DNA of 64,000 bases from the IMG/VR virus record IMGVR_UViG_3300009506_003033, positions 20,499 through 84,498 of that record, one strand, 5' to 3'. The DNA comes from a virus. The position numbers were made by a program, and so were the translations under genes. The notes under the pieces were generated by a model. That model ran no database searches. It was not told where the DNA came from and saw only the letters and a list, made by a program, of their open reading frames with translations. Below are positions 20,374 to 35,350 of the stretch, piece after piece. Within the stretch, counting starts at the first letter, position 1, and every line of letters starts with the position of its first letter.

Positions 20374-21885
20374 TTGATGTCGATTGAACTCCGAGACTAC
20401 CAGCAGCGAGCGATACAAGCCACGCATGAGGCACTGAGACGTGTCAATCGCGTGGTGCTTGTAGCTCCCACGGGCAGTGGCAAGAATTTTTTGTGTAGGT
20501 GGTGGTGCGATGCAATTCCAAAGCGAAATCGAAGACTGGCTATCATTACCCACAGACGAGTTCTCGTATTCCAAATGTCACGACACTGTCAAAATTCTGG
20601 CATTGATCATGGCATTCGCATGGGTGACGATACGACCAATATCGAGGCCCCAGTCCAAATCTGTTCAATCGATACACTCCATTCGCGAGGCAAAGAATTC
20701 TATCCATCAGCAGACTGGGTGATCATTGACGAAATCCACTGTAACGAACAACGGTACGCCAAACTGCTAGAGCATTATCCGAGGGCCAAAATTGTCGGCT
20801 TGACGGCTACACCGGCCAACGAACGTGGAGAGCGTCTGAGCATACCGGAAGAGATAGTTGAACCAGTCTGCAACAGCGATTTGATACCGAAATGGTTGTT
20901 GCCAACTCGGGTTTATCAGATTTGTGACGTTGAAACGAAAGGAATAGGTACGTCAAATGGTGAGTGGAACCAAGAAGAACTCGGCAAGCGACTCGAAAAA
21001 GGATTCTCTGCAATCGATCTATGGAAACACTGGAAGCCATTTTCCGATCGACAAACTATTGTCTGGGTTCCAAGAGTTGCGTTTGCCAGAGGACTTGCCG
21101 ATCAGTTCGTCGAACGAGGATATTCTGCGGAGGTATTGGTTGCTTCCACAGACAACTCGGAACGCGATTCGATGTTTTCACGGTTTCAATCTGGAACACT
21201 TAGAGTGATTATTGGCGTTCAGATCCCGACAATCGGCCTGGACCTACCGATAGCCAGCTGCGGCATCGATTTACAGCCGAGTAGACAGTTGCGCAATTGG
21301 TGGCAAAAGCTAGGCAGAACGCGACGGCAGCACGGCGACCAGCAGGACGCAGTGCTTCTGGATTGCGGTGGCAACTACTGGAGGCATCAGATTCATCCCG
21401 ACGAGGATCCACCCTGGCCAACTGACGGTAAGACGACGGCCGAATTGCTGAAAGAACGTCGAGAGCGCACAGAGACGGCCGGTAAAGAGCCCTGGGAGTG
21501 TCCCATCTGCAAATACTCACTCGCTCCGTGGGAACGCCTGCACGACAATAAGTGCCCAAATTGCGGCCACGAGCTGGCTCGGGCGAAGCGGCGGATCATC
21601 ATGGGCGATGGAACCATGAGAGAAGTCACGGCGAAATCTCAGCGAGTCAAGAAACAATCTGAACACGTCAAAGTGTGGTTGTCGTGTCTGTACATCGCCG
21701 CCAATACTCACAAAACAGTTGGATTCGCATCTTGGCTATTCAAAAAACGCACGAACAAGTGGCCGCAGAGTACGGACGTAGCGTCAGCGATGAAGGGCTC
21801 TATGGCACTTCCACCGCCGAATAGTGCAGACTGGAAATTGCCGGTGGCCATGCTATATCCACAGCTACGAAGGAAACCACGATGA
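20374..21885 (+). CDS. Superfamily 2 DNA helicase with C-terminal Zn ribbon
   Basis: LRDYQ, APTGSGK, DEIH, TATP, QKLGRTRR, two CxxC. Confidence 0.9.
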   Translation: MMSIELRDYQQRAIQATHEALRRVNRVVLVAPTGSGKNFLCRWWCDAIPKRNRRLAIITHRRVLVFQMSRHCQNSGIDHGIRMGDDTTNIEAPVQICSIDTLHSRGKEFYPSADWVIIDEIHCNEQRYAKLLEHYPRAKIVGLTATPANERGERLSIPEEIVEPVCNSDLIPKWLLPTRVYQICDVETKGIGTSNGEWNQEELGKRLEKGFSAIDLWKHWKPFSDRQTIVWVPRVAFARGLADQFVERGYSAEVLVASTDNSERDSMFSRFQSGTLRVIIGVQIPTIGLDLPIASCGIDLQPSRQLRNWWQKLGRTRRQHGDQQDAVLLDCGGNYWRHQIHPDEDPPWPTDGKTTAELLKERRERTETAGKEPWECPICKYSLAPWERLHDNKCPNCGHELARAKRRIIMGDGTMREVTAKSQRVKKQSEHVKVWLSCLYIAANTHKTVGFASWLFKKRTNKWPQSTDVASAMKGSMALPPPNSADWKLPVAMLYPQLRRKPR

Positions 21886-22070
21886 ATCAAGACGACACCG
21901 ATGCAAATGTCGTGCAGTGTTGGCGATGTTTAACACGGATCTTAGTCCGAGAAGGCGTGATTATCGAACATGAATACGTTGAAGGCGAGTTTCGTCCAGT
22001 GCATGAGATGTGTGCTGAACAACGGGTCATGAATGGCCACATGCCAGATGTAACTGATTGATTGTTTTTC

Positions 22071-22322
22071 CTAAGGATTGTGGCTAACTTCTCCCATTGT
22101 GGTCGGATTCTTGGATGAAGATCGACAGAGAAGTTCATCGGTCGTACATTTCAGGCAGTCTGCCAAGAGCACGAGTTGAAGAGTCGTCGGAAGTCGTTTG
22201 TCTCGTTCAAAGTCCGACAAAGTACCCTGGCTAATTCCCGTCTGTCTTGCGATCTCCAGTTGTGTCAGTCCCCGGAGCACACGCAGATTTTTGAGAATTT
22301 CACCAGTGGTTTGCTCTTCCAT
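22071..22322 (-). CDS. Cro/C1-type HTH transcriptional regulator
   Basis: LKNLRVLRGLTQLEIARQTGISQGTLSDFER..LADCL. Confidence 0.85.
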   Translation of the reverse strand: MEEQTTGEILKNLRVLRGLTQLEIARQTGISQGTLSDFERDKRLPTTLQLVLLADCLKCTTDELLCRSSSKNPTTMGEVSHNP

Positions 22323-22371
22323 GGCTTGACGCCTATCGAACGATGTGATAACGTGCATTGCTATACTAGAC

Positions 22372-23433
22372 ATGCAGTTTAGCAAATTCATGGTCGGATT
22401 CAAAGTACAAATCGTAGCCGTCGTTCTGGTACTGGCCTCGTGGACATCTACCAGTGCCGAGCGGTGCATCGTTTTCGCCCAAGGTGCAGGCGGATGGTTC
22501 CGTGGAATGGGTGTGCTGGTAGCCAAGGAAGGCACTCGTGGCCTCGTGATGTCGGCGAAGCACGTTGTCCGAAATGCACGCGGTTCTGTGATTTGCCGAT
22601 TTGTTGGCGGTGATGTGCGAGTGAGTCAAGTGTTGCGTGTCCCGAATGCAGATATTTGCGGCATGTTGATTGACAATGTACCCGCAAGGGCAGAGCCGAC
22701 ATCGTTTGCCGAAGAAGCGCCAAGTGGCAGCGTTGGCACATTTCGAGGTCAGGCTCCGATCACTGTGCAAAATGTGTCGAGCCTGAACGGTTTGCCTCAA
22801 ATCGGATGGCTTGCATCTAGTCCACAAGGGGATTCAGGTGGACCGGTATACAACAGCAATCACGAAGTCGTCGGCATTCTTTGGGGATCCGATGGAAGAA
22901 CATCGATGTCGGAGAGCTATGCGACGGCGCGATGGGCATATGTGCAATTTTGTCAGGCATGGAATTTTCCATGTCCGAGTTGCCAACCGTTACCTTCTGG
23001 GAGGATGGTTGTAGTCCGGCCGACGCAACCGGCTGCTCCTGCTGGTAGTTCAACTCAAGTCGGTCCCTCACAGGCGACGCTGTCGCAGGAGCAGCTTCTA
23101 AACACTCTGTTGGAAAGGATGGCCAAGGATGAAAGGTTCCGGGGAGTTGCCGGACCCAGTGGGCCTCCTGGCCCGATCGGTCCTGCTGGTGGCGATGGCA
23201 GAGATGGATCTGTGGGTGCTCAGGGACCTCGCGGACCTGTTGGAGAACCTGGCCCGCCAGGACAAGATATCGACGCGAGCGGTGCTATGGCAGCGATTGC
23301 AGCAATCGGCAATCGAATTGATGATCTGACGTTTACCGTCGAGGTTGTTCAACCCGACGGAACTGTTGACACCGGTGTTGTTGTGCACGTCGACGGAGGC
23401 GTGCTCCGTATTAACCTTTCTGGAAAGGAGTAA
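22372..23433 (+). CDS. Secreted trypsin-like serine protease with collagen-like repeat
   Basis: Signal peptide, SAKHVV, ADI, QGDSGGPV triad motifs, (Gly-X-Y)n stretch. Confidence 0.85.
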   Translation: MQFSKFMVGFKVQIVAVVLVLASWTSTSAERCIVFAQGAGGWFRGMGVLVAKEGTRGLVMSAKHVVRNARGSVICRFVGGDVRVSQVLRVPNADICGMLIDNVPARAEPTSFAEEAPSGSVGTFRGQAPITVQNVSSLNGLPQIGWLASSPQGDSGGPVYNSNHEVVGILWGSDGRTSMSESYATARWAYVQFCQAWNFPCPSCQPLPSGRMVVVRPTQPAAPAGSSTQVGPSQATLSQEQLLNTLLERMAKDERFRGVAGPSGPPGPIGPAGGDGRDGSVGAQGPRGPVGEPGPPGQDIDASGAMAAIAAIGNRIDDLTFTVEVVQPDGTVDTGVVVHVDGGVLRINLSGKE

Positions 23434-23438
23434 TTCCA

Positions 23439-23765
23439 ATGGCTATTCCGGCCCCGACATCAGACGCTGATGCCATGTGGACCATGAACCTCAAGGCAAT
23501 CGCCGATAGCGGAGCATCACTTATTATGGGTGCTGCTCAAGACGTGAAGCTGAGTCAGGCTAGGCTTGCGATCCTTGGCGAGAACCTGCTGGCCCGCGCT
23601 GGCACGACTTTGGTTCAGCCCGATCCTATCGAGGCGGCTGCGACCAAGCAGATTTTGACGGGTAACGCGATGGGCGACAATGCACTTGTGACGGCTCTCG
23701 CAGCGATTCTATCGAAGGTCAGCTACGGGTTCCCAAATCCGATTCCGGCCGGCGGTACGAGCTAA
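23439..23765 (+). CDS. Ala-rich hypothetical protein
   Basis: AAGGAG RBS; followed by hairpins. Confidence 0.65.
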   Translation: MAIPAPTSDADAMWTMNLKAIADSGASLIMGAAQDVKLSQARLAILGENLLARAGTTLVQPDPIEAAATKQILTGNAMGDNALVTALAAILSKVSYGFPNPIPAGGTS

Positions 23766-23840
23766 TCGCGTGCCGTAGAGGCACGTCTACGGCTGCGATA
23801 AACCTTCACCGGTGGCGTGCCACGCCGCTGGAGGTTTTTA

Positions 23841-24173
23841 ATGACTGCCAAATTCAATATCGAAGTTCCGGTGACGCTGATCTTTCAGCCTGGTCTCGTT
23901 CTGTTGAAAGCTGGATCTCAGACTTTCAATCTCGCAGCGATTGACACCATTGATGAATTTCGTGTATTGCTGTACGGACTCGCATCTGGGGCCATACAAT
24001 CAATAGCTGGCGATTCTGCGACCAGAGTTGTTGCTCCATCCGACGCCAAGCAAACTGCGGAGGCTGCCGATATAATGGCGGATGCCTTTCGCCGACAGGC
24101 CCAGCGGTCACATCAAAATCTCAAGGAAGCTCAAGAGACTTATGAGGCTGCCGTTGCTGGACTCACCAAGTGA
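23841..24173 (+). CDS. Hypothetical protein
   Basis: GGAGG RBS. Confidence 0.55.
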   Translation: MTAKFNIEVPVTLIFQPGLVLLKAGSQTFNLAAIDTIDEFRVLLYGLASGAIQSIAGDSATRVVAPSDAKQTAEAADIMADAFRRQAQRSHQNLKEAQETYEAAVAGLTK

Positions 24174-25366
24174 ACCAACAGTAACCGCTACTGAAAAGGT
24201 TGCCGAACTACTGAAGTTTCGCCAGGACAAAAGCGAAGCTCTGAAGGAAATTCTCCGCGAATTGACAGAATACGAAGGTCGGCAAGATGCGAGGATGAAA
24301 GATTTTCTCGATTATTCGCAGCAATGGATTGCAAAGCAGAAGGAATTGGCAAATGGATGACTTTGGTAGAGAAGAAATTATTGGCATACTTGAAAGAATT
24401 GTGTCGATACAAGTAAGCATGAAAAATCTTCTGGACTCAGATTACACACAACCGATAAATGAACAACTCGCATGTGTAACGAATGACATCGATCTCGTTT
24501 TGGCTGATTTACGAGATGCCAGACGTATAGTTCATAAAAAGGAGTTGGCAAGTGAATGATTTCGACATCGCAGTCGATGATGATATTGCTGAACTTGTTG
24601 AATCAGGTAAACTGGACCCGTGGAAAGCCGGTCAGTGTCAGCTCCGACGCGATGTCGCAGAACTCAAAACACAATTGCGAGATGACATCGCAGTCCTTCA
24701 AAAAAAAATGGAAGATCGAATCACAAAGGACAGTTGGCTCAAAATCCGAAGAAGAAATCCTACTGGCTGATCGCGGTCTTGATCTTGGCATTCATCGCCG
24801 AGGCCATCATCGGATACTTAATACTGGATCAAGGATTTCTACCGACAATGAATCAACAACAGCCAATTCACATCAAACTGGAGACGCGATGAATCCAAAC
24901 GAAAATCATCAATTGATCATAGGCGGGATCACTTTGATTTCAGACGGACGTTTGGCCACTGTGACGAGTCCAGTGTGTGTTTATGAGAATCTGACGCCGG
25001 AAAACGTGCAGGAATTTTGGAATCTGGCCCGATCGAGAGGAGACATCGTAAACGCGATGGATGAATTCCGCGACAAGATGTCTTCGATCTTGATTGATAT
25101 AGGCAACGTTCGACAAGCAAAGGCTAAAGGAAATCCAGATGTCAGCATCGATCAATCCACGAAGTAATTTGCTCCGAACAGCACTTCCAAACGAACACGT
25201 GGCGAATTTTCTTCAAGGTCGCAAAGACATGCCAACGCTGCTTGGCACCATCGAATACATGGATGCTGAGATGGCACGTCTAGAAAGCGAGCTGCGAGCA
25301 GTGGAACATCAGAGACCGGGATGCCCGAAGAAATCTGATAATAACGACTGAAAGGAACAGAATCCA

Positions 25367-25708
25367 ATGAAACTGGCTGTTATCGCATCGTTTGTGGCAA
25401 TACTCTTCCTTGTCAGCGCATGTAGTGCTGACGTCATTTATCGTCCCGGATTGCTTCCGGGCGTTTGGTGGGGAATTCAGCCGGCGGGGCCACCGATCAC
25501 AGTGCAACCGATGCAACGAGTTCGCATTCGTGTTTTTCGGCCATGGTTCTTGGCTGTGCCGCCGGTCATTCAGTACCCACGAGGACCATATTCACCGGTT
25601 CAGGTAATGCCAGGATCATCGGCGCCAACGTGGGGCGAATATCAGGGTCGATGGGGATGGGGAGTCATTCCACAGCAGAATTCAACCGTAACCAAAGAGG
25701 AGCAATGA
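25367..25708 (+). CDS. Small secreted Pro/Trp-rich protein
   Basis: MKLAVIASFVAILFLVSACSA signal peptide. Confidence 0.6.
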   Translation: MKLAVIASFVAILFLVSACSADVIYRPGLLPGVWWGIQPAGPPITVQPMQRVRIRVFRPWFLAVPPVIQYPRGPYSPVQVMPGSSAPTWGEYQGRWGWGVIPQQNSTVTKEEQ

Positions 25709-25998
25709 TGGCAGGACGAGGAAAGAAAGTGTGCCCAGAATGCAGTTCAGAATGCGGCACGAGAAGCAAAGAGTGTCCGAGTTGCAGTCATGTGTTCGCG
25801 GCCAGACGCGAATCGAAGAGGCCGCGAGTGCCAACTGATGCCGAACTAAAGGCACAAGATGTTTCCAGCAACGGAGCCATGATCCAGGCATCGAATGCCT
25901 TGGCGGCAATTGAGGCCGCTCGAAAATTGGTAGACTGTTGCAGCGGAGACGCGGCAGCCGCGAACGAGTTGATTCTATCTATGATCGGCCAAGATTAA
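25705..25998 (+). CDS. Zn-ribbon protein
   Basis: GKKVCPECSSECGTRSKECPSCSHVF. Confidence 0.65.
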   Translation: MMAGRGKKVCPECSSECGTRSKECPSCSHVFAARRESKRPRVPTDAELKAQDVSSNGAMIQASNALAAIEAARKLVDCCSGDAAAANELILSMIGQD

Positions 25999-26012
25999 AG
26001 AGTCGATGGTCG

Positions 26013-26078
26013 CGAGGCACGATGGACTGCCCCGTCTCGGCTTGGAGCGATGTCGGGACGGGGTTGCCTCGCTTTTTG
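26013..26078 (+). terminator. Bulged stem-loop with U-tract
   Basis: GCGAGGCA..CCCCGTC / GACGGGG..TGCCTCGC followed by TTTTT. Confidence 0.55.
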
Positions 26079-26088
26079 AAAGCAACTC

Positions 26089-26763
26089 ATGCCTGTTTTC
26101 TGTCTTTGCACCGGCCGCTGCGGATCGCAATCTATAGTTGATCTGCTGAAGCGAAACGGCGTCGAAGGCTGTCATCACGAGAAATATCCGGCACTCTTTC
26201 GTGAAGCAATCGGTTATTATTACGGGCTCTACAGTCGGGATCGAATCGTAGCGAAGTTGCGAGAGACGCGGCAGGGCGTGTTCTTCGAGGCCAACAACAA
26301 ACTCTTTCCGTTGGCCAAGCCTCTTTTTCAGGCGTTTCCCGACGCCAAGTTCATGGTTCTGCATCGCGACGGCAGAGAAGTAGTGCGGTCGGCTCTTCAG
26401 AGCAATTGGTATCATCCCAAAGATCCCTATGGCATGTTGAGGCTCGGTGCGAGGATGAGAATCTCGCAGTTCAAGAAGGTGTGTCGATATTGGTCTGAAG
26501 TTTACCGGCGCATCTACGATGATCTGGCATCGCTGGATTGTGAATTCATTGAAGTACGATTCGATGAATTGATCAAAGGCAAATTGGCGGATCAGCTCGG
26601 CAAGTTCATCGGCAGGAGGCTAAGACTTCGCGTGCCGCGGAGACTGCACCGCACGAAGCGATGGACGGTGAAACCATACGCGCAGTGGAAGCCCGAGCGG
26701 CAGCGAGAATTTCGGAGCATCTGCGGCCCGATGATGGAACGGCTGGGATATTCTTTCGATTGA
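26089..26763 (+). CDS. Sulfotransferase family protein
   Basis: TGRCGSQ (5'-PSB loop), FPDAKFMVLHRDGREVVRS, RFDEL, MERLGY. Confidence 0.85.
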   Translation: MPVFCLCTGRCGSQSIVDLLKRNGVEGCHHEKYPALFREAIGYYYGLYSRDRIVAKLRETRQGVFFEANNKLFPLAKPLFQAFPDAKFMVLHRDGREVVRSALQSNWYHPKDPYGMLRLGARMRISQFKKVCRYWSEVYRRIYDDLASLDCEFIEVRFDELIKGKLADQLGKFIGRRLRLRVPRRLHRTKRWTVKPYAQWKPERQREFRSICGPMMERLGYSFD

Positions 26764-26768
26764 CGGTA

Positions 26769-26796
26769 TTGACAGAATATCGCAGTCGTTTATAAT
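26769..26796 (+). promoter_or_regulatory. Sigma70 consensus promoter of the RAMP/array locus
   Basis: TTGACA-16-TATAAT. Confidence 0.85.
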
Positions 26797-26806
26797 CTGG
26801 TTTATA

Positions 26807-26910
26807 CGGTGTGGCAGCCGAAGAGTCCGGAGAGCCAAAACCCTTCGGTGTTCGCAACGAGCGCTTCTCCGGTGCTCACTGCCACGCGGTCACCGAAGGG
26901 TTTTTGTTTT
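26807..26910 (+). ncRNA. C4/CI-like leader RNA, copy 4
   Basis: a=GTGGCAG, b=CCGGAGA; stem AAAACCCTTCGGTG/CACCGAAGGGTTTT encloses loop TCTCCGG and bulge CTGCCAC; U-tract. Confidence 0.7.
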
Positions 26911-26916
26911 GATGGA

Positions 26917-27105
26917 GACGGGGCGCGGCGTGGCGCGGCGAGGCATGGCAGGGCGGGGCGGGGCCAGGCAAGGCGAGGCAGGCGTGGCATGGCAGGCGAG
27001 GCAGGCAGGGCTTGGCATGGCAGGCGAGGCGAGGCGCGGCGAGGCGAGGCAGGCAGGGCACGGCAGGGCATGGCAGGGCCAGGCAGGGCGAGGCAGGCAT
27101 GGTTT
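26917..27105 (+). repeat. GGY-NN pentamer array 1 (putative guide RNA array)
   Basis: GGC-GC GGC-GT GGC-GC GGC-GA GGC-AT... with GGCA phase breaks. Confidence 0.9.
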
Positions 27106-27107
27106 TC

Positions 27108-27139
27108 GTCCGATGTGAGTGCATCGGACACTTTTTTCC
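27108..27139 (+). terminator. Hairpin closing array 1
   Basis: GTCCGATG-TGAGTG-CATCGGAC followed by ACTTTTTT. Confidence 0.7.
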
Positions 27140-27175
27140 TTTACTGCTGGCACAGGCCAGCAAGGAGTTATTGTC

Positions 27176-27865
27176 ATGGCAAAGGCCAAGAAACCAGAAG
27201 GTACGATCGAACTTCAGCGGCTCGAAGAGGCCATTCTTGAGGTGCCCATCATCGGCAAGACACCGTTGATCCCGCACAAATGGTCGGAGAAGGCCAAAGG
27301 CATGATGCCAGGGCATCCTGATCGAGACAAAGTGAAAGCCGATAAGGGTACTCGCGATCCAGCAAAGGAAGCCGAGTCCTGCCAGTACAAACTCGGCGAA
27401 CAGTACGCAGTTCCCGCTACTGCGTTCAAAGCGGCTATGATTGGTGCTTGTCGATTCTTCGAGAAGCCTACGATGGTCGAAGCCAAATCGCTGGTGTACG
27501 TCGAAGGTTCTGGCGCTGATCAGCTTGTCGAATTCGACTACAAGGACAAAGAGTTGCACGAGGATACTCCTCGCAACTCAAATGGCAGCGCCGATCTGCG
27601 GTATCGATACTATTTCACGAACTGGTCAGCTGTTCTGCGAATCTTGTACGTGCCGAAGATCATCTCCCGAGAGTCCATCATTGCTCTTGTTGATGCTGCG
27701 GGCCGCGGAGGCATCGGCGATTGGCGGCCGAGTGCCCCAAAGTCGATGACGGGAACGTACGGCACGTGGCGAGTCGATGATCGCGGCACGATCAGAGACA
27801 TCGATCCGAAAGATGTTGACAAGACATCGCCTAAACCAAAGCGGAAAGCATCAAAAGCAATCTGA
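27176..27865 (+). CDS. Stand-alone RAMP/Cas7-like RNA-binding protein (229 aa)
   Basis: Beta1 ILEVPIIGKTPLIPH; YAVPATAFKAAM (compare RAMP IPGSSLKG); C-terminal Gly-rich loop GRGGIGDWRP..GTYGTWRV; AAGGAG RBS. Confidence 0.75.
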   Translation: MAKAKKPEGTIELQRLEEAILEVPIIGKTPLIPHKWSEKAKGMMPGHPDRDKVKADKGTRDPAKEAESCQYKLGEQYAVPATAFKAAMIGACRFFEKPTMVEAKSLVYVEGSGADQLVEFDYKDKELHEDTPRNSNGSADLRYRYYFTNWSAVLRILYVPKIISRESIIALVDAAGRGGIGDWRPSAPKSMTGTYGTWRVDDRGTIRDIDPKDVDKTSPKPKRKASKAI

Positions 27866-27880
27866 TGTTTTGCGGTTGAA

Positions 27881-28760
27881 GACATGGCAAGGTAAGGCTA
27901 GGCCGGGCATGGCGCGGCAAGGCAAGGCCAGGCGTGGCAGGTTGGGTTCGGCTTGGCAAGGCTGGGCAGGCCAGGCTTGGCATGGCATGACTGGGTCTGG
28001 CAGGGCTCGGCGGGGCTTGGCGAGGCAGGCGAGGCGCGGCCAGGCTTGGCACGGCTTGGCTGGGCCAGGTGAGGCAAGGCAAGGCGTGGCAGGCTAGTCG
28101 CGGCCAGGCATGGCTGGATTAGGTAGGGCTTAGCGAGGCGAGGCACGGCAGGCGTGGCGTGGCGTGGCTAGGCAAGGCATGGCGTGGCAGGCGAGCCAAG
28201 GCTAGGCAAGGCGGGGCAAGGCTGGGCGCGGCAGGGCGAGGCTTGGCTTGGCTCGGCAAGGCGCGGCAGGCGCGGCAGGGCTCGGCGCGGCAAGGCAGGC
28301 AAGGTGTGGCGCGGCATGCGCGGCAAGGCAGGCGAGGCGTGACGAGGCGAGGCCAGGCCCGGCGAGGCGAGGCCAGGCCCGGCGAGGCGAGGCGAGGCGC
28401 GGCGAGGCGAGGCAGGCAGGGCACGGCAGGGCATGGCAGGGCGGGGCAAGGCCGGGCTTGGTTTGGCATGGCAAGGCTGGCGAGGCAGGCAAGGCGAGGC
28501 AGTCGTGGCTTGGCGGGGCATGGCATGGCCTGGCAGGGCAAGGCGCGGTGGGGCTGGGCAAGGCGTGGCAGGCATGGCCCGGCATGGCGCGGCGAGGCGG
28601 GACAGGGCGGGGCACGGCTGGGCATGGCAAGGCTGGCGAGGCAGGCAAGGCGAGGCAGTCGGGGCTCGGCATGGCGGGGCTGGGCTAGGCCAGGCGTGGC
28701 AGGTTGGGTTCGGCTTGGCAAGGCTGGGCTTGGCCCGGTAAGGCAAGGCGCGGCAGACAT
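27881..28760 (+). repeat. GGY-NN pentamer array 2 (880 bp)
   Basis: Continuous 5-nt periodicity, variable NN, segmented by GGCA or GGCT tetramers. Confidence 0.92.
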
Positions 28761-28762
28761 GA

Positions 28763-28800
28763 TGCTGGCGGTAAGTGCCGCCAGCAATATTTTCTTTCTC
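28763..28800 (+). terminator. Hairpin closing array 2
   Basis: TGCTGGCGG-TAAGTG-CCGCCAGCA followed by a T-rich tail. Confidence 0.7.
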
Positions 28801-28833
28801 TAACGTTCGCATAGGCGGACAAGGAGTTGTGTT

Positions 28834-29547
28834 ATGGCTAAGGCCAAATCTAGTGTAATCACGATGTCACTGTCTGAACTTGTGGAGGACATGGAATTGT
28901 ACCCGCGGCATGCTGTTGACAATGCACATGTCGCTTCTCTCGTGTTGGCGATGGAATCCGGCAGTCAATTGCCGCCGATCGTCGCTGACAAGAAATCCAA
29001 ACGGATCACTGATGGATGGCATCGGGCCAGGGCCTATGCGCGAATACATGGCCCAACGGCGACTGTAGAGGTCGAACTAATCGACTATGCATCAGAAGCA
29101 GATATGATTTTTGATGCAGTGCGACGTAATTCTGCTCACGGTCGCAAGCTCGATTCAATGGATCAAACGCGGTCCATCCACATGATGGAAAAACGAGGCT
29201 TGCAATCGATTCAAATCGCGGCTGCCTTGAATGTGCCAGAGAAACGGATCGAGAAGCTGCGGATCAAAGTCGCGAGCAGCCGATCATCCGGGATTGCTAC
29301 GGTTCCAGGCACGAAGTCGATCACGTTGAAGCGATCGTGTTCTCACATGGCCGGCAAATCATTGACAGCCGATCAAGTAAAAGTGCACGATTCGGCGCCT
29401 GGAACCAGCTATCTATTGGTTTCACGACAATTGCGAGAGGCACTGCGAGTTGAACTAGTGAATCTCGACGATGAGCGACTGGTGGAAGAACTTTGTGCTC
29501 TGCGTGACGCACTGAATGAGTACTTGGAGCAGCTTTGTGCTGCTTGA
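28834..29547 (+). CDS. ParB/Srx-like domain protein with HTH
   Basis: LYPR..LPPIVAD..ITDGWHRARA..NSAHG; IQIAAALNV. Confidence 0.8.
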   Translation: MAKAKSSVITMSLSELVEDMELYPRHAVDNAHVASLVLAMESGSQLPPIVADKKSKRITDGWHRARAYARIHGPTATVEVELIDYASEADMIFDAVRRNSAHGRKLDSMDQTRSIHMMEKRGLQSIQIAAALNVPEKRIEKLRIKVASSRSSGIATVPGTKSITLKRSCSHMAGKSLTADQVKVHDSAPGTSYLLVSRQLREALRVELVNLDDERLVEELCALRDALNEYLEQLCAA

Positions 29548-29721
29548 GGTTTAGGTCTGGGCAAGGCGTGGCAAGGCCAGGATGGGCTCGGCGGGGCGTG
29601 GCAGGCAGGGCACGGCAAGGCAGGGCGAGGCCGGGCCAGGCGCGGCATGGCCTGGCATGGCGCGGCGCGGCGAGGCAGGCGAGGCAAGGCGCGGCTTGGT
29701 GTGGCAGGCGAGGCAAGACAT
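29548..29721 (+). repeat. GGY-NN pentamer array 3
   Basis: Begins right after the ParB-like stop codon; same grammar as arrays 1 and 2. Confidence 0.9.
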
Positions 29722-29756
29722 CGCGGATATGAAACATGAAAGGTGTGGCGAATGAA

Positions 29757-29960
29757 ATGAAAACCTACACGAAAACAAAGCTACTGGCATATTACAAAGA
29801 GCTCGGAAAAACGCCGCCTAAGTGGGTGTTGGAGGCGCCGGAGAATGCGTTATTCAATCAAGGCTTGACACCATACGGTCACGTTCCGCTGTATATCAAG
29901 GGGATGCCTGCACCGAAAGCACAACCTGATGTTGTATCAATCGACTTTCCGGACGCTTAG
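29757..29960 (+). CDS. Small hypothetical protein between arrays
   Basis: MKTYTKTKLLAYY..; non-repetitive composition. Confidence 0.55.
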   Translation: MKTYTKTKLLAYYKELGKTPPKWVLEAPENALFNQGLTPYGHVPLYIKGMPAPKAQPDVVSIDFPDA

Positions 29961-29964
29961 AGAA

Positions 29965-30208
29965 GGCTGGCATTGTAGGCGTGGCACGGCCGGGCATGGC
30001 TCGGCAGGGCGCGGCCAGGCGCGGCCAGGCGTGGCAGGCGTGGCAGGCGTGGCTTGGCGCGGCAAGGATAGGCAAGGCAAGGCTAGGTTTGGCGAGGCGC
30101 GGCGAGGCCGAGCTCGGCGCGGCTGGCTTGGCATGGCTTGGCGAGGGCCGGTTTGGCCAGGCGCGGCATGGCTTGGCATGGCGCGGCGCGGCGAGGCAGG
30201 CGAGGTGC
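29965..30208 (+). repeat. GGY-NN pentamer array 4
   Basis: Same grammar; its 3' block is shared with array 3. Confidence 0.9.
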
Positions 30209-30271
30209 GGACAAACAACTCTCCCAAAACCCAACCCACTTGTTACACTATGGATAGCAAAGGAGGTGCCA

Positions 30272-31441
30272 GTGACATTGCAGGTAGAGACAGTGCCGAT
30301 TGACAGCGTGAGTCCTGATCCGGCGAACACGATGAACCATCCACCGCGGAACATCTCTGCCATTGAGGGATCGCTGAAGCGGTTCGGACTTCGTAAGCCG
30401 ATCGTCGTCGATAGCAACGGGGTCATCAGGGCCGGCAATGGGACATGGCAGGCAGCCAAGAATCTCGGCTGGCAAACAATTGATGTTGCACGGACTAATC
30501 TCGCTGGTTCCGAGGCAACGGCCTATTCCATCGCTGACAATCGCACGGCTGAACTGGCGGAATGGAACGAGGAGTTACTGGCTAGACTCTTGCCGGAGAT
30601 GGATTACGAGTTGCAACTCGCTACCGGATTTGATGAGGACGATCTGAAAGAGTTGTTCGCTGAACAATTGAACAACACGGACAGCGAGATAGATCGTGAA
30701 CCACTTATCGATAAGGCCGGAGAACTTCAGAGGAAATGGAAGGTTGAGTTGGGCCAATTCTGGCAAATTGATCGGCACCTTGTATATTGCGGGGATGCTC
30801 TTGACTGGTCTTACGAAGCAGATGGAGTTTGCACCGATCCACCGTATGACATGAGTTGCGAAACGATTCGAACGGTCGTCCGTCAATATGCAAAAGTAGC
30901 AGCTGTTATCTGTACGGGACGCCAGGCATTCAATTTAGCGAGGGATGGATGGGAATATGCAATGGACTTATGTTGGAGTCATAAATCTCCACGATCAATC
31001 AACACGAAGCGTACGCCATTGTTCTACCACGCGAATGTTGTCGTGATGAATCTGGGCGGAAACAAGACCGACTGGACGCGACCGAGGCCAAATTACGGCA
31101 GTCTATTACATCACGAATACGAGGACTGGGGAGGCCACGGCCAAGGCAAGTCGCCGAACTTATTCGCAGAAATTATGGAAGGATTTCCCTGGGAAACGAT
31201 GGCTGATCCTTTCGCCGGAACGCTTGCGACACTTATTGCGGCTCACAAACAAGGCAGAACATTCATTGGATGCGAAAAAGAGCCAAAAATGCTGGCGGTA
31301 GGGCTTGAACGTTGCAGCCTATTGTGTCCTAAGGTGTTGACAGACAAGCAGTTGAGTCGGTATAATGCGGGAAAGCTTGCTGGTGGTCAGCAAGCGATCC
31401 CGAAACATGCTCGAACTGTGAAGGAGTCCGAGAATGTCTGA
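30272..31441 (+). CDS. ParB-N domain / DNA methyltransferase fusion
   Basis: AGGAGG RBS with GTG start; PIVVD..AGNG..IADNR; TDPPY, DPFAG. Confidence 0.85.
   Translation: MTLQVETVPIDSVSPDPANTMNHPPRNISAIEGSLKRFGLRKPIVVDSNGVIRAGNGTWQAAKNLGWQTIDVARTNLAGSEATAYSIADNRTAELAEWNEELLARLLPEMDYELQLATGFDEDDLKELFAEQLNNTDSEIDREPLIDKAGELQRKWKVELGQFWQIDRHLVYCGDALDWSYEADGVCTDPPYDMSCETIRTVVRQYAKVAAVICTGRQAFNLARDGWEYAMDLCWSHKSPRSINTKRTPLFYHANVVVMNLGGNKTDWTRPRPNYGSLLHHEYEDWGGHGQGKSPNLFAEIMEGFPWETMADPFAGTLATLIAAHKQGRTFIGCEKEPKMLAVGLERCSLLCPKVLTDKQLSRYNAGKLAGGQQAIPKHARTVKESENV
31337..31366 (+). promoter_or_regulatory. Internal sigma70 promoter
   Basis: TTGACA-18-TATAAT inside the MTase 3' end. Confidence 0.55.
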
Positions 31442-32222
31442 AGCTATTTTAGCGGAATCGTTGCCGAAAGGAATTAAGTCAACCAAGATAGCGTGGACGG
31501 ACACCACGCTCAATTTTTGGATCGGCTGCCAGAAGATCAGTCCTGGCTGTAAGAACTGCTACGCCGAGCGGATTGTCAGAGATCGGATGGGTCGCGAGCA
31601 CTGGGCCACATCGCCACGATGGCGGACGAAAGCGGCATGGGATGATGCCTATCGCTACAACCGAATCGCCAAGAATGCTGGGCGTCGAATCATGGTATTC
31701 GCCAACGACATGTCTGATTGGGCTGAAGATCATCCCGATGTCAATCGTTGGCGATGGGACATGTGGCGGGTGATCAAGGAATGCCGCTGGCTTGACTGGC
31801 AGCTACTGACAAAAAGAGCCGATCGCATCGCAAGATGCTTGCCAGCGGACTGGAATGATGGATACCCGAACGTCTGGCTTGGTGTTTCGATCGAATCGGA
31901 TGATTATTGCTGGCGAGCTGATAGGCTCCGGGAAGTAAATTCTGGAATCAGATTCATCAGTTATGAACCGGCATTAGGTCCGCTCGATAGCCTCGATCTA
32001 GCTGGTATTGACTGGCTGATCATCGGCGGAGAATCAGGACCGCATTATCGGCCGTTCGATCACAATTGGGCTCGGGAGCTACGAGTACGATGCGCCCTGT
32101 CGAACACAGCATTTTTCTTCAAGCAATCAGCTGCCATCAGGACAGAGATGGGGATAGAACTTGATGGGGCAATCGTCAGGGAATACCCAAAAGTGATGTC
32201 AGATCTAGTAGGTGTGGGATAG
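31434..32222 (+). CDS. Phage Gp37/Gp68 (DUF5131) family protein
   Basis: IAWTD..GCQKISPGCKNCYA, LLTKR, ISYEPALG, IIGGESG, FFFKQ. Confidence 0.9.
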   Translation: MSEAILAESLPKGIKSTKIAWTDTTLNFWIGCQKISPGCKNCYAERIVRDRMGREHWATSPRWRTKAAWDDAYRYNRIAKNAGRRIMVFANDMSDWAEDHPDVNRWRWDMWRVIKECRWLDWQLLTKRADRIARCLPADWNDGYPNVWLGVSIESDDYCWRADRLREVNSGIRFISYEPALGPLDSLDLAGIDWLIIGGESGPHYRPFDHNWARELRVRCALSNTAFFFKQSAAIRTEMGIELDGAIVREYPKVMSDLVGVG

Positions 32223-32224
32223 TA

Positions 32225-32857
32225 ATGGCTGCCACCATAGAGAACAGGACGAACGGCGCCGACATCGCGAAGATGTCTGCGATGCAGCAGAAATTCTGCC
32301 TGGAGATGTTGGCGGACGAGAAATACAACGCCACGGAGGCTGCCAGAAAGGCAGGATATTCTCAGCCGAATACGGCCGCTTTCAAACTCTTAGCCAATCC
32401 CGCTATCAAGCGGTATCTAGGCAAGGCCAAGCGACTCAGGGAAGAGCGGACACAGCTTACAAGCGACGACATTTGGCGGCAGTTGCATCGTGCGATATTC
32501 TTCGATCCGGCAGAAGTTTTCGAGAGTGCCGGCAGGGGATGGTGGATACTGAAGGCACTGAATGACATCCCGGTCGAAATTCGCCAGCTCATTGAAGAGA
32601 TTCACATCACTACGCGGCAAGTGACGGTTCCGATTCGGGATGCGACCAGCGGGCACGTCACGGGGACGAAAGTCATCGACATGCCGTTGCCACGGCTGAA
32701 GTTCATCAGCAAGAGCGGTGCACTTGCAACAGCGGCCAAGCACAGCATACCTCAGCAGGTCGAGGTGAGCATCGACTACGAAAAGCTGTACCGATCCAAC
32801 CGCGACGAACCCAACGAGATCGAAGGGGAGATTCTCAAGATTGAAAGGGGTGAATGA
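32225..32857 (+). CDS. terS: Terminase small subunit
   Basis: QQKFCLE..NATEAARKAGYS..LLANPAI. Confidence 0.85.
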   Translation: MAATIENRTNGADIAKMSAMQQKFCLEMLADEKYNATEAARKAGYSQPNTAAFKLLANPAIKRYLGKAKRLREERTQLTSDDIWRQLHRAIFFDPAEVFESAGRGWWILKALNDIPVEIRQLIEEIHITTRQVTVPIRDATSGHVTGTKVIDMPLPRLKFISKSGALATAAKHSIPQQVEVSIDYEKLYRSNRDEPNEIEGEILKIERGE

Positions 32858-33310
32858 AGCATGAGGATTAGTACATCCGAGGACATGGCGGCATTCATCC
32901 AGGAAACGCTGTATCCAGATGCTGATAGGATGTTGGCGATAGTGAAGGAACATGGCTGGTGGAAAAGGGATCGGCTGGCCCACATGAGTGCACGATGGAT
33001 GCTGATTCATCTAATCCGAATGGAGACTTCCGACCAAGAATGTCATGCCCGCATTGTTCAGAAGTGTCGCAAGCGGTGATGTGTCTCAAATATGGTGGCG
33101 ATATCTACAAATGTGCGGCATGCGGTTCTACTTGGTCCAAGAGGTATCGTCATCGGGACATGGGTGTAGGAACTAAGAAAAAGGTGTGTGCCCGATGTGG
33201 CGAAGTGCGAGAGCACGAGGATCTCACCTATCATAGCTTGTGGTGTCATTGCGATTTGGATGAGGATTGTGATCACGGTCTGTGCGATGATTGCCTGTGC
33301 GAAGTGTTAG

Positions 33311-34798
33311 ATGGCGATGGATAACATCGTAGTCGATCCGATTGAATTTGCTCGGGTTCACTGGCCGGACATACGCTTTTACAAGCAGCAGCAGGACATC
33401 ATCTATTCTGTAGTAGAGAACGATGAGACGGTGGTGCCAGCTGGTAATGAACTGGGCAAAGACTTTGTAGCGGCATTCATCATTCTCTGGTTCTTCTGCA
33501 GCCGCCTTCCCGCCCGAATCGTAGCTACCGGTCCAAGTGAAAGACAAGTCGAGGACGTGCTATGGGGGGAAATCAAGCGATTCGTCGACACGTCAAAGTA
33601 CAAACTTCCCGTAGTCTATTCTCATATGCTCTTGAGGCGAACGAGAAGAGACGGATCCATCGTGCCAGCCTGTGAAGTACGGGGACAGGTGGCACAAAAG
33701 GGCGAATCATTACTTGGTAGACATACGCCGCGGGGACTGGGTGGATTGCCGATGACCATGGCAGTATTCGATGAAGGTTCTGGAATCGACGATATGCCGT
33801 ATCAGTCGAGTGACACCTGGGCACATCGCAAGCTCATAATTGGTAACCCGCGGCCCTGCACGAATTTCTTTTTCCATGCAGTGCAAAGTGGTGACAAGCG
33901 ATCTCCGGCGAACAATCATTATTGGCGCAAAGTAATCAGGATACGAGCAGATGACAGTCCGAACGTTAGGGCGGGGCGGGCCGGACTGCAAAAGATACTT
34001 GTGCCTGGGTTAGTCACTTGGGAAGATTATCAGAAGCGGCGTGCCCAGTGGGGACGAGAACAACAGGCATGGGGGCTCGATGCAGAATTCTACGAAGGTC
34101 CCGAACTCAAGCTTTTCCCGGCCGAATGGCTCAATCGGGCCGAGGCGGCAGCTGACGGCGGTGTGAAGCCGAAGGGACGAATTACTATAGGTAGCGATCC
34201 AGCGGAGGGCGGCGACAGCACGGTGTGGGCAGTCGTCTGCGAGAACGGACTGCTTGAACTGGTGAGCATGAAGACTCCGAATACGGCGGTCATCAGCAAC
34301 TGGACGCTCGGACTGATGCGAAAATGGCATGTGCAGCCCGAGGATGTCTATCTGGATCAAGGTGGTGGCGGGAAGGAACATGCTGACTATCTTCGGGAAA
34401 AGGGATATCCTGTACAGACGGTGGCCTTCGGCAAGCCGGTGAACGCGGACGGCGGAATGGTGACGTTTTGGGAGAAGCGGGACATGCGGGAACAAGGCTA
34501 CGGCTACAAGAATCGTCGGGCCCAGATGTACGATCTCATCAGTCAGAGATTGAATCCCGACAACGGTTCCCCGTTCGCTATAGGCAGGGAACACGCGGAA
34601 CTGCGGCGGCAACTCAGCCCCATTCCCCGCTTGTACGATGGAGAGGGTAGAATGTATTTGCCTCCGAAGAGGAAAGTGCCTCACAGCAACGTGCAGACGA
34701 TGATCGACTTATGTGGTCATAGTCCGGACGAGGCGGATGCATTGGCCTTGGCGGTATACGGGTTGTCACAGGAGCGATTCGAGATAGGGCCGATTTAG
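33311..34798 (+). CDS. terL: Terminase large subunit
   Basis: AGNELGKD Walker A, VFDEGSG Walker B, IGNP, GSDPAEGGD, SPDEADA. Confidence 0.9.
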   Translation: MAMDNIVVDPIEFARVHWPDIRFYKQQQDIIYSVVENDETVVPAGNELGKDFVAAFIILWFFCSRLPARIVATGPSERQVEDVLWGEIKRFVDTSKYKLPVVYSHMLLRRTRRDGSIVPACEVRGQVAQKGESLLGRHTPRGLGGLPMTMAVFDEGSGIDDMPYQSSDTWAHRKLIIGNPRPCTNFFFHAVQSGDKRSPANNHYWRKVIRIRADDSPNVRAGRAGLQKILVPGLVTWEDYQKRRAQWGREQQAWGLDAEFYEGPELKLFPAEWLNRAEAAADGGVKPKGRITIGSDPAEGGDSTVWAVVCENGLLELVSMKTPNTAVISNWTLGLMRKWHVQPEDVYLDQGGGGKEHADYLREKGYPVQTVAFGKPVNADGGMVTFWEKRDMREQGYGYKNRRAQMYDLISQRLNPDNGSPFAIGREHAELRRQLSPIPRLYDGEGRMYLPPKRKVPHSNVQTMIDLCGHSPDEADALALAVYGLSQERFEIGPI

Positions 34799-34809
34799 GA
34801 GCAAATATC

Positions 34810-35151: not shown

Positions 35152-35350
35152 ACGACGGAGAAGACGAAAATCTGAACGATCGAAGCGAAGCCTATCAGTT
35201 GGCTCTAGAGGAATACTACGAGCGACAGCGCGAGATGCGGGAGGACTGGGAATACGAGGAGGAACTGCGGAAGAAGCGGCCTGATGGGCCTTGGGCGGAT
35301 TTGATGCGGCGAGTGGGGAGGTTGATATAGCAATAAAAGGGAGCGAAAAG

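What the first reader, a model, noticed from the sequence alone, without database searches (positions are those of the whole stretch)
27881..28760. Two-level grammar: GGCA tetramers split the arrays into guide-sized units with readable NN strings
Seen: the 5-nt register is broken by a 4-nt GGCA (rarely GGCT), usually after a G-starting NN (GA, GT, GC), giving many units of about 11-16 pentamers plus short linkers. Decoded examples: 27881-27939 AT-AA-AA-TA-CG-AT-GC-AA-AA-CA-GT; 28028-28091 GA-GC-CA-TT-AC-TT-TG-CA-GA-AA-AA-GT; 28092-28150 TA-GC-CA-AT-TG-TA-AG-TT-GA-GA-AC. Several array ends carry a GAC variant of the triplet. Inference: GGCA marks processing or filament boundaries, and each unit carries about 22-32 specified bases, comparable to a CRISPR spacer. 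A gapped read (NN-x-NN-x) in phase with codons would skip wobble positions and resist synonymous escape.
Basis: partly seen in the sequence, partly recalled or inferred. Interest (0 to 1): 0.88.

Follow-up and report, generated by a model that had tools for sequence, protein, structure and literature searches.

The report
Staggered VIPR guide-RNA array in phage
The pentamer tract is the guide-RNA array of a phage VIPR system, a CRISPR-related RNA-guided DNA silencer described in 2026 preprints, and its four-base GGCA steps are the junctions between guide-sized units, so this is a new example of a known kind.

Summary
Window 27881-28760 is a + strand array of 178 GGY-NN pentamers. It is cut into 20 segments by 19 four-base steps, 17 GGCA and 2 GGCT. 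Three sister arrays lie nearby.

The gene between arrays 1 and 2 (27176-27865) is a Vipr protein. Its family profile matches solved SUSP1 Vipr at E 4.4e-6, and the residues that hold the GG of each repeat are conserved.

So this is a VIPR system (bioRxiv 10.64898/2026.04.26.720920). That preprint names "staggered arrays" whose vrRNAs overlap by 1 nt, which is the GGCA step (GGCAG/GGCNN sharing one G). It did not confirm them by RNA sequencing.

Comparison supports the units as modules:
- In the window plus 28 related phage loci, 231 of 270 four-base steps are GGCA, and unit length peaks at 10-12 pentamers.
- In 13 cultured mycobacteriophages, whole GGCA-ended units are gained or lost, and 8 of 8 substitutions inside shared units fall on NN.

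I found no target for any guide, and no RNA run exists. The gapped, wobble-skipping read therefore rests on the preprints, not on this window.

The scan has met VIPR staggered arrays before on other DNA. Verdict: new member of a known kind.

The parts
26769..26796 (+). Sigma-70-type promoter-like site (TTGACA, 16 nt, TATAAT) upstream of array 1
   Evidence: 12 of 12 consensus positions. Three sites were found in 26000-30500, against 1.4 expected from shuffles. Function is inferred.
26834..26915 (+). Long leader hairpin followed by a U-run, between the promoter and array 1
   Evidence: RNA fold of 26795-26925: -52.3 kcal/mol, z -1.95, 11 of 200 shuffles fold as well. The support is weak and the role is unknown.
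26922..27105 (+). vrRNA array 1: 38 GGY-NN units in 7 segments with 6 GGCA junctions
27108..27139 (+). Terminator-like hairpin with T-run at the 3' end of array 1
   Evidence: Nine-pair stem followed by a T-run. Fold z -3.4 for 27096-27180.
27176..27865 (+). vipr gene (229 aa), a stand-alone RAMP protein
   Evidence: phrog_4652 at 5e-29. Solved SUSP1 Vipr (36pp_D): E 0.003 with the single sequence and 4.4e-6 with the family profile. H34, R144 and W183-R184 are invariant and D182 is at least 90% conserved among 32 homologues. They align with SUSP1 H17, R138 and D177-W178-R179. 788 homologues were found.
27881..28760 (+). vrRNA array 2, the finding: 178 units in 20 segments with 17 GGCA and 2 GGCT junctions. 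Twelve segments hold 8 or more units; eleven of them give guides of 8 or more full NN pairs.
28763..28796 (+). Terminator-like hairpin with T-run at the 3' end of array 2
   Evidence: Ten-pair stem with 7 GC pairs. Fold z -2.9; 0 of 200 shuffles fold as well.
28834..29547 (+). ParB-like gene (237 aa) between arrays 2 and 3, a candidate accessory (vap-like) gene
   Evidence: phrog_1033 'ParB-like partition protein' at 2e-13. No Pfam family at E up to 0.01. A homologue sits beside vipr in 4 of 28 close loci: L002, L006, L011 and L014. A role in VIPR is not shown.
29560..29721 (+). vrRNA array 3: 32 units with 3 GGCA junctions, followed by GACAT
29736..29960 (+). Small ORF (74 aa) between arrays 3 and 4, of no known family
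   Evidence: ORF list. No NCBIfam match. Whether it is a gene was not tested.
29978..30208 (+). vrRNA array 4: 47 units with 3 GGCA and 1 GGCT junctions

Best explanation
The tract is one of four vrRNA arrays of a phage VIPR system of the 'staggered' architecture.

**Transcription (inferred).** The arrays are transcribed on the + strand together with vipr.

**Filament (established for SUSP1 Vipr by cryo-EM, inferred here).** One Vipr protomer binds each GGY-NN pentamer. It buries GGY and displays NN.

**Junction (inferred).** Where a pentamer is one base short (GGC-A-GGY), the 5-nt register slips by one. The protein filament cannot continue across it, and a new unit starts. The long transcript is thereby divided into guide units, most often 9-16 pentamers, with no tail or repeat handle between them. 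The RNA may be cut at the exposed junction, or the units may only be separated as filaments. That is not known.

**Targeting (published rule, not shown here).** Each unit would recognise double-stranded DNA by pairing its NN pairs with a target of the form NN-x-NN-x. It would silence genes of competing phages or other mobile elements.

**Evolution.** Units are modular. Related phages gain, lose and swap whole units at the junctions.
For: **Vipr identity.**
- The family profile matches solved SUSP1 Vipr at E 4.4e-6.
- The residues that hold G1, G2 and Y3 in SUSP1 (H17, R138, D177-W178-R179; section 5 of bioRxiv 10.64898/2026.04.26.720927, read) align with conserved residues here. H34, R144, W183 and R184 are invariant and D182 is at least 90% conserved.

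**Array features.**
- 295 GGY-NN units lie on the vipr strand, directly flanking vipr.
- In the window plus 28 close loci, 40 arrays (3205 units) are on the vipr strand. Two calls (88 units) are on the other strand, and both overlap + strand arrays.

**Junctions.**
- Window: 29 GGCA and 3 GGCT of 32 steps.
- Family: 231 GGCA of 270 steps (p 1e-74).
- The NN before the junction is enriched for GT, AT, GA and AA: 62% against 32% at internal positions.
- The first triplet after the junction is relaxed: GGC in only 95 of 199 cases and GTC in 36.

**Unit size.** 245 internal segments have mean 10.3 and sd 4.1 units. 65% have 9-14 units, against 20% for a geometric spread. This matches the 9-16 repeats reported for vrRNAs.

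**Modularity in 13 Cheoctovirus mycobacteriophages**.
- Arrays are mosaics of 17 unit types, nearly all of length 5n+4 nt.
- Donkeykong equals Pippy plus two whole units, 59 + 54 nt.
- SwagPigglett equals ByChance plus one 59-nt unit.
- 8 of 8 substitutions inside shared units lie on NN and none on GGY.

**No self-targeting.** The window's guides have no match to their own 84.5-kb contig above shuffled controls. This agrees with the preprint's control.

**Literature.** The preprint's Fig. S18 legend describes staggered arrays with 1-nt overlaps.
Against: **Targets.**
- 18 window guides against the own contig plus 41 related loci (1.09 million scanned positions, both strands together): best scores equal the shuffled controls at skip 0-3.
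- 294 guides, all against all: 14 reach 85% NN match at skip 1, against 16 for shuffled guides.
- Cores of two window guides gave 0 exact hits in viral contigs.
- One core gave 1 hit in metagenome contigs. Its extension matched 2 of 6 bases and the skipped base fell on codon position 1, so it is chance level.
- A core shared by two guides gave 28 hits, none of which extends.

**Proxy tests with mycobacteriophage guides also failed.**

**Other gaps.**
- The Vipr fold was not predicted, because the tool was off. The match to solved Vipr covers only about 60 of 229 residues.
- Half of the window's segments are short (2-8 units) and have no assigned role.
- Block order in array 2 is not confirmed independently.
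Confidence: 0.85

Rival explanations
1. The arrays are VIPR guide arrays, but the four-base steps are neutral slippage or deletion scars in a fast-evolving pentamer microsatellite. They would not be boundaries, and the whole array or arbitrary stretches of it would serve as guide.
For: - Short segments of 2-8 units are common: 15 of 28 internal segments in the window.
- Five-nt indels inside a unit also occur: Saal unit u16 is u14 minus one pentamer.
- No RNA ends are available.
Against: - A random one-base loss would leave any of the NN bases. Yet 231 of 270 steps are GGCA, against 32% A expected.
- Neighbouring positions are also biased.
- Unit lengths are peaked, not geometric.
- Indels between related phages remove exactly whole GGCA-ended units.
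Confidence: 0.07
2. The pentamer arrays act as DNA, as binding arrays for the neighbouring ParB-like proteins or the terminase (a centromere-like or packaging site), and not as guide RNA.
For: - In the window the arrays are interleaved with a ParB-like gene and a ParB-methylase fusion.
- They lie 2-5 kb upstream of the small and large terminase genes.
- A ParB-like gene sits beside vipr in 4 of 28 related loci.
Against: - The arrays are strand-specific and co-oriented with vipr in 40 of 42 calls.
- 24 of 28 related loci have arrays but no ParB-like homologue.
- In the mycobacteriophage locus whose annotation I read in full (Donkeykong), the array lies in the early region next to the repressor, cro-like and antirepressor genes, not next to packaging genes.
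- The adjacent protein carries the GGY-RNA-binding residues of solved Vipr.
- A 5-bp period puts successive GGC triplets on opposite faces of the duplex, a poor geometry for a cooperative DNA-binding array (my inference).
Confidence: 0.04
3. The tract codes for protein. Long ORFs are open across it on both strands, and GenBank records of related mycobacteriophages annotate 'hypothetical protein' genes over their arrays.
For: - ORFs of 214 aa are open on both strands across array 2.
- CDS features overlap the arrays in Donkeykong, LastJedi, Clifton and Zizzle (with array positions).
Against: - A conserved triplet at a 5-nt period rotates through all three codon positions.
- 32 four-base steps shift the frame.
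- Stops are rare simply because of the composition.
- All 8 substitutions inside shared units fall on NN whatever the frame.
- Whole-unit indels of 59, 54 and 49 nt are not multiples of three.
Confidence: 0.01

Closest known systems
VIPR systems with staggered vrRNA arrays (bioRxiv 10.64898/2026.04.26.720920, Results section 9 and Fig. S18 legend; read)
   Same: - A lone Vipr RAMP gene flanked by GGY/NN pentamer arrays on the same strand, in a virus.
- Consecutive guide units abut with a 1-nt overlap, which is the GGCA step.
- No tail or ribozyme lies between units.
   Different: - The preprint's main text gives no junction consensus, unit-length distribution or evidence of unit exchange. The terms 'GGCA', 'junction' and 'cassette' are absent from its main text.
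- It states that only the ribozyme and single-vrRNA architectures were confirmed by small-RNA sequencing.
I cannot say whether this contig or this clade is among its 664-667 loci, or which of the seven types it belongs to.
- 'ParB' does not occur in the main text of this preprint or of 10.64898/2026.10.15.759431. My term search of the structure preprint failed, so it was not checked there.
Type II VIPR of Escherichia phage SUSP1 (same preprint; structures in bioRxiv 10.64898/2026.04.26.720927, sections 5 and 6 read; PDB 36pp)
   Same: - GGY-NN repeats and unit sizes of 9-16 repeats.
- Conserved G-loop D-W-R, thumb R and beta-sheet H residues.
- Phage-borne.
   Different: - SUSP1 vrRNAs are separate transcripts of about 100 nt, each capped by an invariable tail of about 40 nt with a pseudoknot. 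Here up to 20 units run on without tails, and only the array ends carry hairpins.
- Protein similarity is remote: only about 60 residues align by sequence.
CRISPR arrays and Class 1 Cas7 backbone filaments
   Same: - RAMP protomers polymerise along a guide RNA and flip out bases periodically.
- Arrays hold many modular guides that differ between related genomes.
   Different: - There is no repeat-spacer structure, no Cas1/Cas2 and no Cas6-type handle.
- The guide information is non-contiguous, 2 of every 5 nt.
- Unit boundaries are a one-base register slip rather than a 30-nt repeat.

Membership tests
VIPR system | A Vipr protein: a minimal RAMP with G-loop and thumb residues that bind GGY | tested here: met
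   By sequence only. Profile against PDB 36pp_D 'SUSP1 Vipr protein': E 4.4e-6. H34, R144, W183 and R184 are invariant and D182 is at least 90% conserved in 32 homologues. They align with SUSP1 H17, R138 and D177-W178-R179. The fold was not predicted, because the tool was off.
VIPR system | Tandem GGY/NN (YNNGG) pentamer repeats in the intergenic regions flanking vipr, on the same strand, with NN hypervariable | tested here: met
   295 units, of which GGC 264 and GGT 17. 40 of 42 array calls in 29 loci are on the vipr strand. 8 of 8 substitutions in shared units of 13 mycobacteriophages lie on NN.
VIPR system | Arrays are expressed as vrRNAs that co-purify with Vipr | not testable with these tools
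   One search listed only DNA runs holding the stretch. laid only DNA contigs.
VIPR system | Guides match natural targets under the 1-nt skip rule, with the skipped base on the codon wobble position | tested here: inconclusive
   No match above shuffled controls in 1.09 million scanned positions of local sequence. Six of the window's 18 guides were tested by core patterns in public collections, with nothing beyond chance. Host genomes could not be searched because the window is a virus record.
VIPR system | Mostly viral or proviral context with a small accessory (vap) gene | tested here: met
   It is a virus record. Terminase small and large subunits and DUF5131 lie downstream. The candidate accessory gene is ParB-like, shared with 4 of 28 close loci. 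Its identity with any published vap could not be checked because the supplements were closed.
Staggered vrRNA array architecture | Consecutive vrRNAs abut with a 1-nt overlap, and no tail or ribozyme lies between them | tested here: met
   There are 32 four-base steps, GGC-A/T followed directly by the next unit. No Rfam family, hammerhead included, matches in 20000-36000. That the units are separately processed RNAs is not shown here, nor by RNA sequencing in the preprint.
CRISPR-Cas | Repeat-spacer array with cas1/cas2 adaptation genes | tested here: not met
   Tandem Repeats Finder found only rows of period 5 and longer periods describing the same pentamer arrays, with no repeat-spacer structure. 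None of the 10 larger ORFs of 22345-34798 that I scanned matched a Cas family.

The most novel reading that the evidence does not exclude
The GGC-A-GGY junction is a self-sufficient punctuation mark. A one-base register slip, together with a biased NN before it and a relaxed triplet after it, ends one Vipr filament and starts the next. Guide units would then be defined by the effector protein itself, with no dedicated nuclease, tail or repeat handle. The same junctions would serve as recombination points at which whole guides are swapped between phages. That would be a Cas1-independent way of renewing a guide repertoire. In a subclade a ParB-like protein would be an undescribed accessory of the system.
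Probability: 0.3. Interest if true: 0.55.

Novelty: new member of a known kind. Interest (0 to 1): 0.3.

Why it matters
The finding adds no new principle. VIPR, its gapped NN-x code and the existence of staggered arrays are in 2026 preprints, and this scan has met such arrays on other DNA before.

What it adds is detail on the one published array architecture that the first preprint did not confirm by RNA sequencing:
- a conserved junction consensus;
- a peaked unit length;
- exchange of whole units between related phages.

It also adds a practical point. The same Vipr clade and the same junction grammar occur in cultured Mycobacterium smegmatis phages (Cheoctovirus: Donkeykong, Pippy, Florinda and others). 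There the boundaries could be mapped directly. In some GenBank records of these phages the arrays are annotated as hypothetical protein genes.

Tried and rejected
**RNA evidence.** No RNA holder is listed for 26760-30260. There are only two DNA runs from marine sediment, in one study. Laying their contigs showed pieces that stop inside the arrays and no spanning piece. That gives nothing on transcripts or ends.

**Structure.**
- The ESM Atlas was closed for the window protein and for one stored homologue.
- Rfam found nothing at E up to 1 in 20000-36000.

**Targets, window guides.**
- Local scan of 18 guides against the own contig plus 41 loci at skip 0-3, with 30 shuffles each: no excess.
- All 294 guides of all loci against the same sequence: no excess.
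- Ten-NN cores of two guides in viral contigs: 0 and 0 hits.
- A ten-NN core of a third guide in metagenome contigs: 1 hit, in L050. The extension matched 2 of 6 bases, and the skipped base fell on codon position 1 of the covering ORF. About one chance hit is expected by my rough estimate of the collection size.
- An eight-NN core shared by two guides: 28 hits, with upstream extension 1-6 of 12 bases. None is credible.
- Degenerate peptides implied by the guides, in both orientations, showed no motif that I recognised.

**Targets, proxy guides from mycobacteriophages.**
- Two full 11-NN units in viral contigs: 0 hits each.
- A 14-NN Florinda unit with up to 3 mismatches in 401 genomes of the family of Mycobacterium szulgai: 0 hits.
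- The near-universal unit with up to 3 mismatches in 5 whole Cheoctovirus genomes: 0 hits.
- Its nine-NN core in viral contigs: 10 hits against about 2 expected, with the best match 21 of 22 bases. They lie in AT-rich phages. Of the three covering ORFs I scanned, one is a tape measure protein, one a glycosyltransferase and one unassigned. I read these hits as driven by composition and a common helical peptide, not as targets.

**Host.** The genome-collection scan returned only 7 Vipr loci, none of them planctomycete. Planctomycete genomes could not be searched.

**ParB-like partner.** A single-sequence locus search found no further relatives. There was no PDB relative.

**Supplements.** Supplementary files of the preprints were closed and I did not ask for them. 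Fig. S18, data S3/S4 and table S3 may already hold the type, the junction and this clade.
Full report
**What is there**

The window is 64 kb of an 84.5-kb virus record with 51% G+C. Two marine-sediment DNA runs hold the stretch.

Four tracts on the + strand consist of GGC triplets spaced 5 nt apart: 26922-27105, 27886-28756, 29560-29716 and 29978-30208. They are the only such arrays in the contig. The reverse strand shows no such pattern.

In the finding's tract:
- 123 of 155 GGC-to-GGC spacings are 5 nt.
- 14 are 4 nt.
- The other 18 are 9, 10, 14 or 15 nt, where one or two triplets are degenerate.

A dynamic-programming parse allows steps of 3 to 7 nt. It gives 178 units in 20 segments of 11, 6, 12, 13, 12, 8, 16, 6, 4, 3, 17, 13, 2, 3, 14, 13, 2, 3, 9 and 11 units. 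Every segment but the last ends in a four-base GGCA (17 times) or GGCT (2 times).

Over all four arrays:
- There are 295 units: GGC 264, GGT 17, other 14.
- There are 32 four-base steps: 29 GGCA and 3 GGCT.
- A occupies the step in 29 of 32 cases, against 32% at that position in full units (p 7e-12).
- The preceding NN starts with G in 24 of 32 cases, against 38% (p 2e-5).

The qualification is that only about half the segments are guide-sized.

**What it is**

The gene between arrays 1 and 2 (27176-27865, 229 aa) has no Pfam family. It matches phrog_4652, of unknown function, at 5e-29. In the PDB it matches one entry only, 36pp 'SUSP1 Vipr protein'. The E-value is 0.003 with the single sequence and 4.4e-6 with a profile of 32 homologues.

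The aligned stretches carry the residues that recognise the GG of each repeat and help hold Y3 in the SUSP1 cryo-EM work (bioRxiv 10.64898/2026.04.26.720927, section 5, read):

| SUSP1 residue | Residue here | Conservation in 32 homologues |
|---|---|---|
| H17 | H34 | invariant |
| R138 | R144 | invariant |
| D177 | D182 | at least 90% |
| W178 | W183 | invariant |
| R179 | R184 | invariant |

[quoted passage not shown] I read these parts of the first (10.64898/2026.04.26.720920): the outline, Results, Discussion, methods sections 20, 26 and 27, and the figure legends that term searches returned. Its main points:
- vrRNAs consist of 9-16 YNNGG repeats.
- The NN pairs pair with a DNA target in which one base is skipped after each pair.
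- The skipped base usually falls on the codon wobble position, which the authors argue defeats synonymous escape.
- VIPR is mostly viral.
- There are seven types with different array architectures.
[quoted passage not shown] - Only the ribozyme-interspersed and single-vrRNA architectures were confirmed by small-RNA sequencing.

A GGCA step followed by GGC is the same thing as a terminal pentamer GGCAG that shares its last G with the next unit. Its inferred gapped read is the published code.

**Comparative test of the grammar**

The Vipr family is large: 788 proteins at E up to 0.001. A scan of viral contigs returned 41 loci.

My array caller finds GGY-NN arrays in 39 of the 41. None was detected in L023 and L029. 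In the 28 loci whose Vipr is 36-62% identical, plus the window:
- 40 arrays (3205 units) lie on the vipr strand.
- Two calls (88 units) lie on the other strand, both overlapping + strand arrays.

These 29 loci hold 2883 five-base steps and 270 four-base steps. Of the four-base steps, 231 are GGCA, 16 GGCG, 5 GGCT and 5 GGCC (p 1e-74 against 32% A).

The junction is wider than the step itself:
- The NN before it is GT, AT, GA or AA in 62% of 226 long units, against 32% at internal positions.
- The first triplet after it is GGC in only 95 of 199 cases, with GTC 36, GGA 16, GCC 14 and GGT 14.
- The window's preference for a G-starting NN is only weakly shared. In the family that base is A 41% and G 39%.

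Internal segment lengths (n = 245) have mean 10.3 and sd 4.1, with a mode at 10-12. 65% fall in 9-14, where a geometric distribution of the same mean would put 20%.

**Evidence from cultured phages**

The clearest evidence comes from cultured phages. A tblastn search of GenBank phages found the same Vipr clade, at about 50% identity, in 27 Mycobacterium and 5 Gordonia phage records and one cyanophage record. I compared 13 Cheoctovirus phages: five from IMG/VR loci and eight fetched. Their arrays are mosaics of 17 unit types:
- Almost all units have length 5n+4 nt and end in GGCA.
- The last unit is shared by all 13. The first unit is shared by the 11 phages other than Florinda and Quico.
- Donkeykong equals Pippy plus two whole units, 59 + 54 nt.
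- SwagPigglett equals ByChance plus one 59-nt unit.
- Saal carries a unit one pentamer shorter than its counterpart.
- All 8 substitutions inside shared units lie on NN positions, none on GGY.

Units bounded by GGCA therefore behave as exchangeable modules with hypervariable NN. This is what guides should do, and it is not what slippage scars or coding sequence would do.

**Anatomy of the locus**

The parts, in order along the + strand:
1. A perfect sigma-70-type promoter match at 26769-26796.
2. A long leader hairpin with a U-run (weak statistics).
3. Array 1.
4. A terminator-like hairpin at 27108-27129.
5. vipr.
6. Array 2.
7. A terminator-like hairpin at 28763-28786.
8. A ParB-like gene at 28834-29547 (phrog_1033, 2e-13).
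9. Array 3.
10. A 74-aa ORF.
11. Array 4.

Downstream lie a ParB-N/DNA-methylase fusion, DUF5131 and the terminase small and large subunits.

There are no conserved tails between units, unlike SUSP1 vrRNAs. Only arrays 1 and 2 end in hairpins. A homologue of the ParB-like gene lies directly beside vipr in 4 of the 28 close loci. It is a candidate accessory gene of a subclade and no more than that.

**How it most likely works**

Shown for SUSP1 by others and inferred here: one protomer binds per pentamer, GGY is buried and NN is displayed. My inference: a unit that is one base short breaks the helical register, so a filament ends there and the next begins. The single exposed base may or may not be cut. 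The function, silencing of competing mobile elements through NN-x recognition, is carried over from the preprints.

**Targets**

I could not find a target.

Local scans:
- The 18 window guides of 8 or more NN pairs show no match above shuffled versions at skip 0, 1, 2 or 3. The scan covered the own contig and the 41 related loci, with arrays masked.
- The 294 guides of all loci show none either. 14 reach 85% NN match at skip 1, against 16 for shuffled guides.
- The absence of self-matches agrees with the preprint's control.

Exact pattern scans of public collections with cores of window guides gave 0, 0, 1 and 28 seed hits:
- The single metagenome hit extends by 2 of 6 bases and has its skipped base on codon position 1.
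- None of the 28 hits extends beyond chance.

Proxy scans with mycobacteriophage units:
- 0 hits for two full units in viral contigs.
- 0 hits in 401 genomes of the family of Mycobacterium szulgai at up to 3 mismatches.
- 0 hits in five whole Cheoctovirus genomes.
- For the near-universal unit, 10 seed hits in AT-rich phages. Of the three covering ORFs I scanned, one is a tape measure protein, one a glycosyltransferase and one unassigned. I attribute these hits to composition.

The host is unknown and its genomes could not be reached. I treat the target question as open, not as evidence against the reading.

**Limits**

- The fold of the protein was not predicted because the tools were off.
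- The preprints' supplements were closed, so I cannot assign the VIPR type. I also cannot say whether this clade, its junction consensus or the mycobacteriophage examples are already tabulated there.
- The arrays break short-read assemblies. Pieces from two runs agree with the contig, but none spans an array.

**Verdict**

The interpretation coincides with a mechanism published in 2026 and is supported here for the unit boundaries. It is not supported here for targeting.

The scan has already reported VIPR arrays on other DNA, staggered ones with GGC-A-GGY junctions included. This is a new member of a known kind.

Its residual interest lies in three points:
- The staggered architecture was not confirmed by RNA sequencing in the first preprint.
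- Guide turnover appears to go by whole-unit exchange.
- Cultured M. smegmatis phages with the same grammar offer a direct test.

Noticed in passing
L030-L041 (viral contigs), arrays next to Vipr homologues of 24-41% identity: A more distant Vipr clade keeps the GGC-NN pentamers but separates guide-sized units (7-23 pentamers) differently. Instead of a four-base step it uses a 12-nt separator of two six-base steps, typically GGCNNG followed by GAACAN.
   Followed up: no
GenBank records of Mycobacterium phages, e.g. L049 (Donkeykong gp48), L080 (LastJedi gp43), L081 (Clifton gp44), L085 (Zizzle gp53): Hypothetical-protein CDS features are annotated over the pentamer arrays just upstream of the vipr homologue. 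These are probably not genes.
   Followed up: partly
window 28834-29547, and L002, L006, L011, L014: A ParB-like gene sits directly beside vipr or between arrays in the window and in 4 of 28 related loci. 'ParB' does not occur in the main text of two VIPR preprints that I searched for the term.
   Followed up: partly
window 28381-28738, and between arrays (27052, 28415, 29604; 29640-29677 against 30160-30198): Blocks of units are duplicated within array 2: a 156-nt period with 76-82% matches. Blocks are also shared between arrays, for example three units that open with the same NN series and two units that share an eight-NN 3' half.
   Followed up: no
window 27881, 28756, 29717: The pentamer GACAT, within AGACAT, marks the start of array 2 and the ends of arrays 2 and 3. 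In the Cheoctovirus arrays GACAT is the unit just before GGCA in several units. In the family at large it is rare at array ends.
   Followed up: partly
window 30272-31441 and 31434-32222: A ParB-N/DNA methyltransferase fusion (phrog_498, 8e-50) and a DUF5131 protein lie between array 4 and the terminase genes.
   Followed up: no
window 22345-23433: An ORF combines a trypsin-like peptidase domain with collagen triple-helix repeats and gives tail-fibre-like PHROG hits.
   Followed up: no
L043 (Mycobacterium szulgai DSM 44166 contig), 7686-7868 and 9056-9318: A chromosomal, probably prophage, copy of the same Vipr clade carries two staggered arrays flanking the gene.
   Followed up: no
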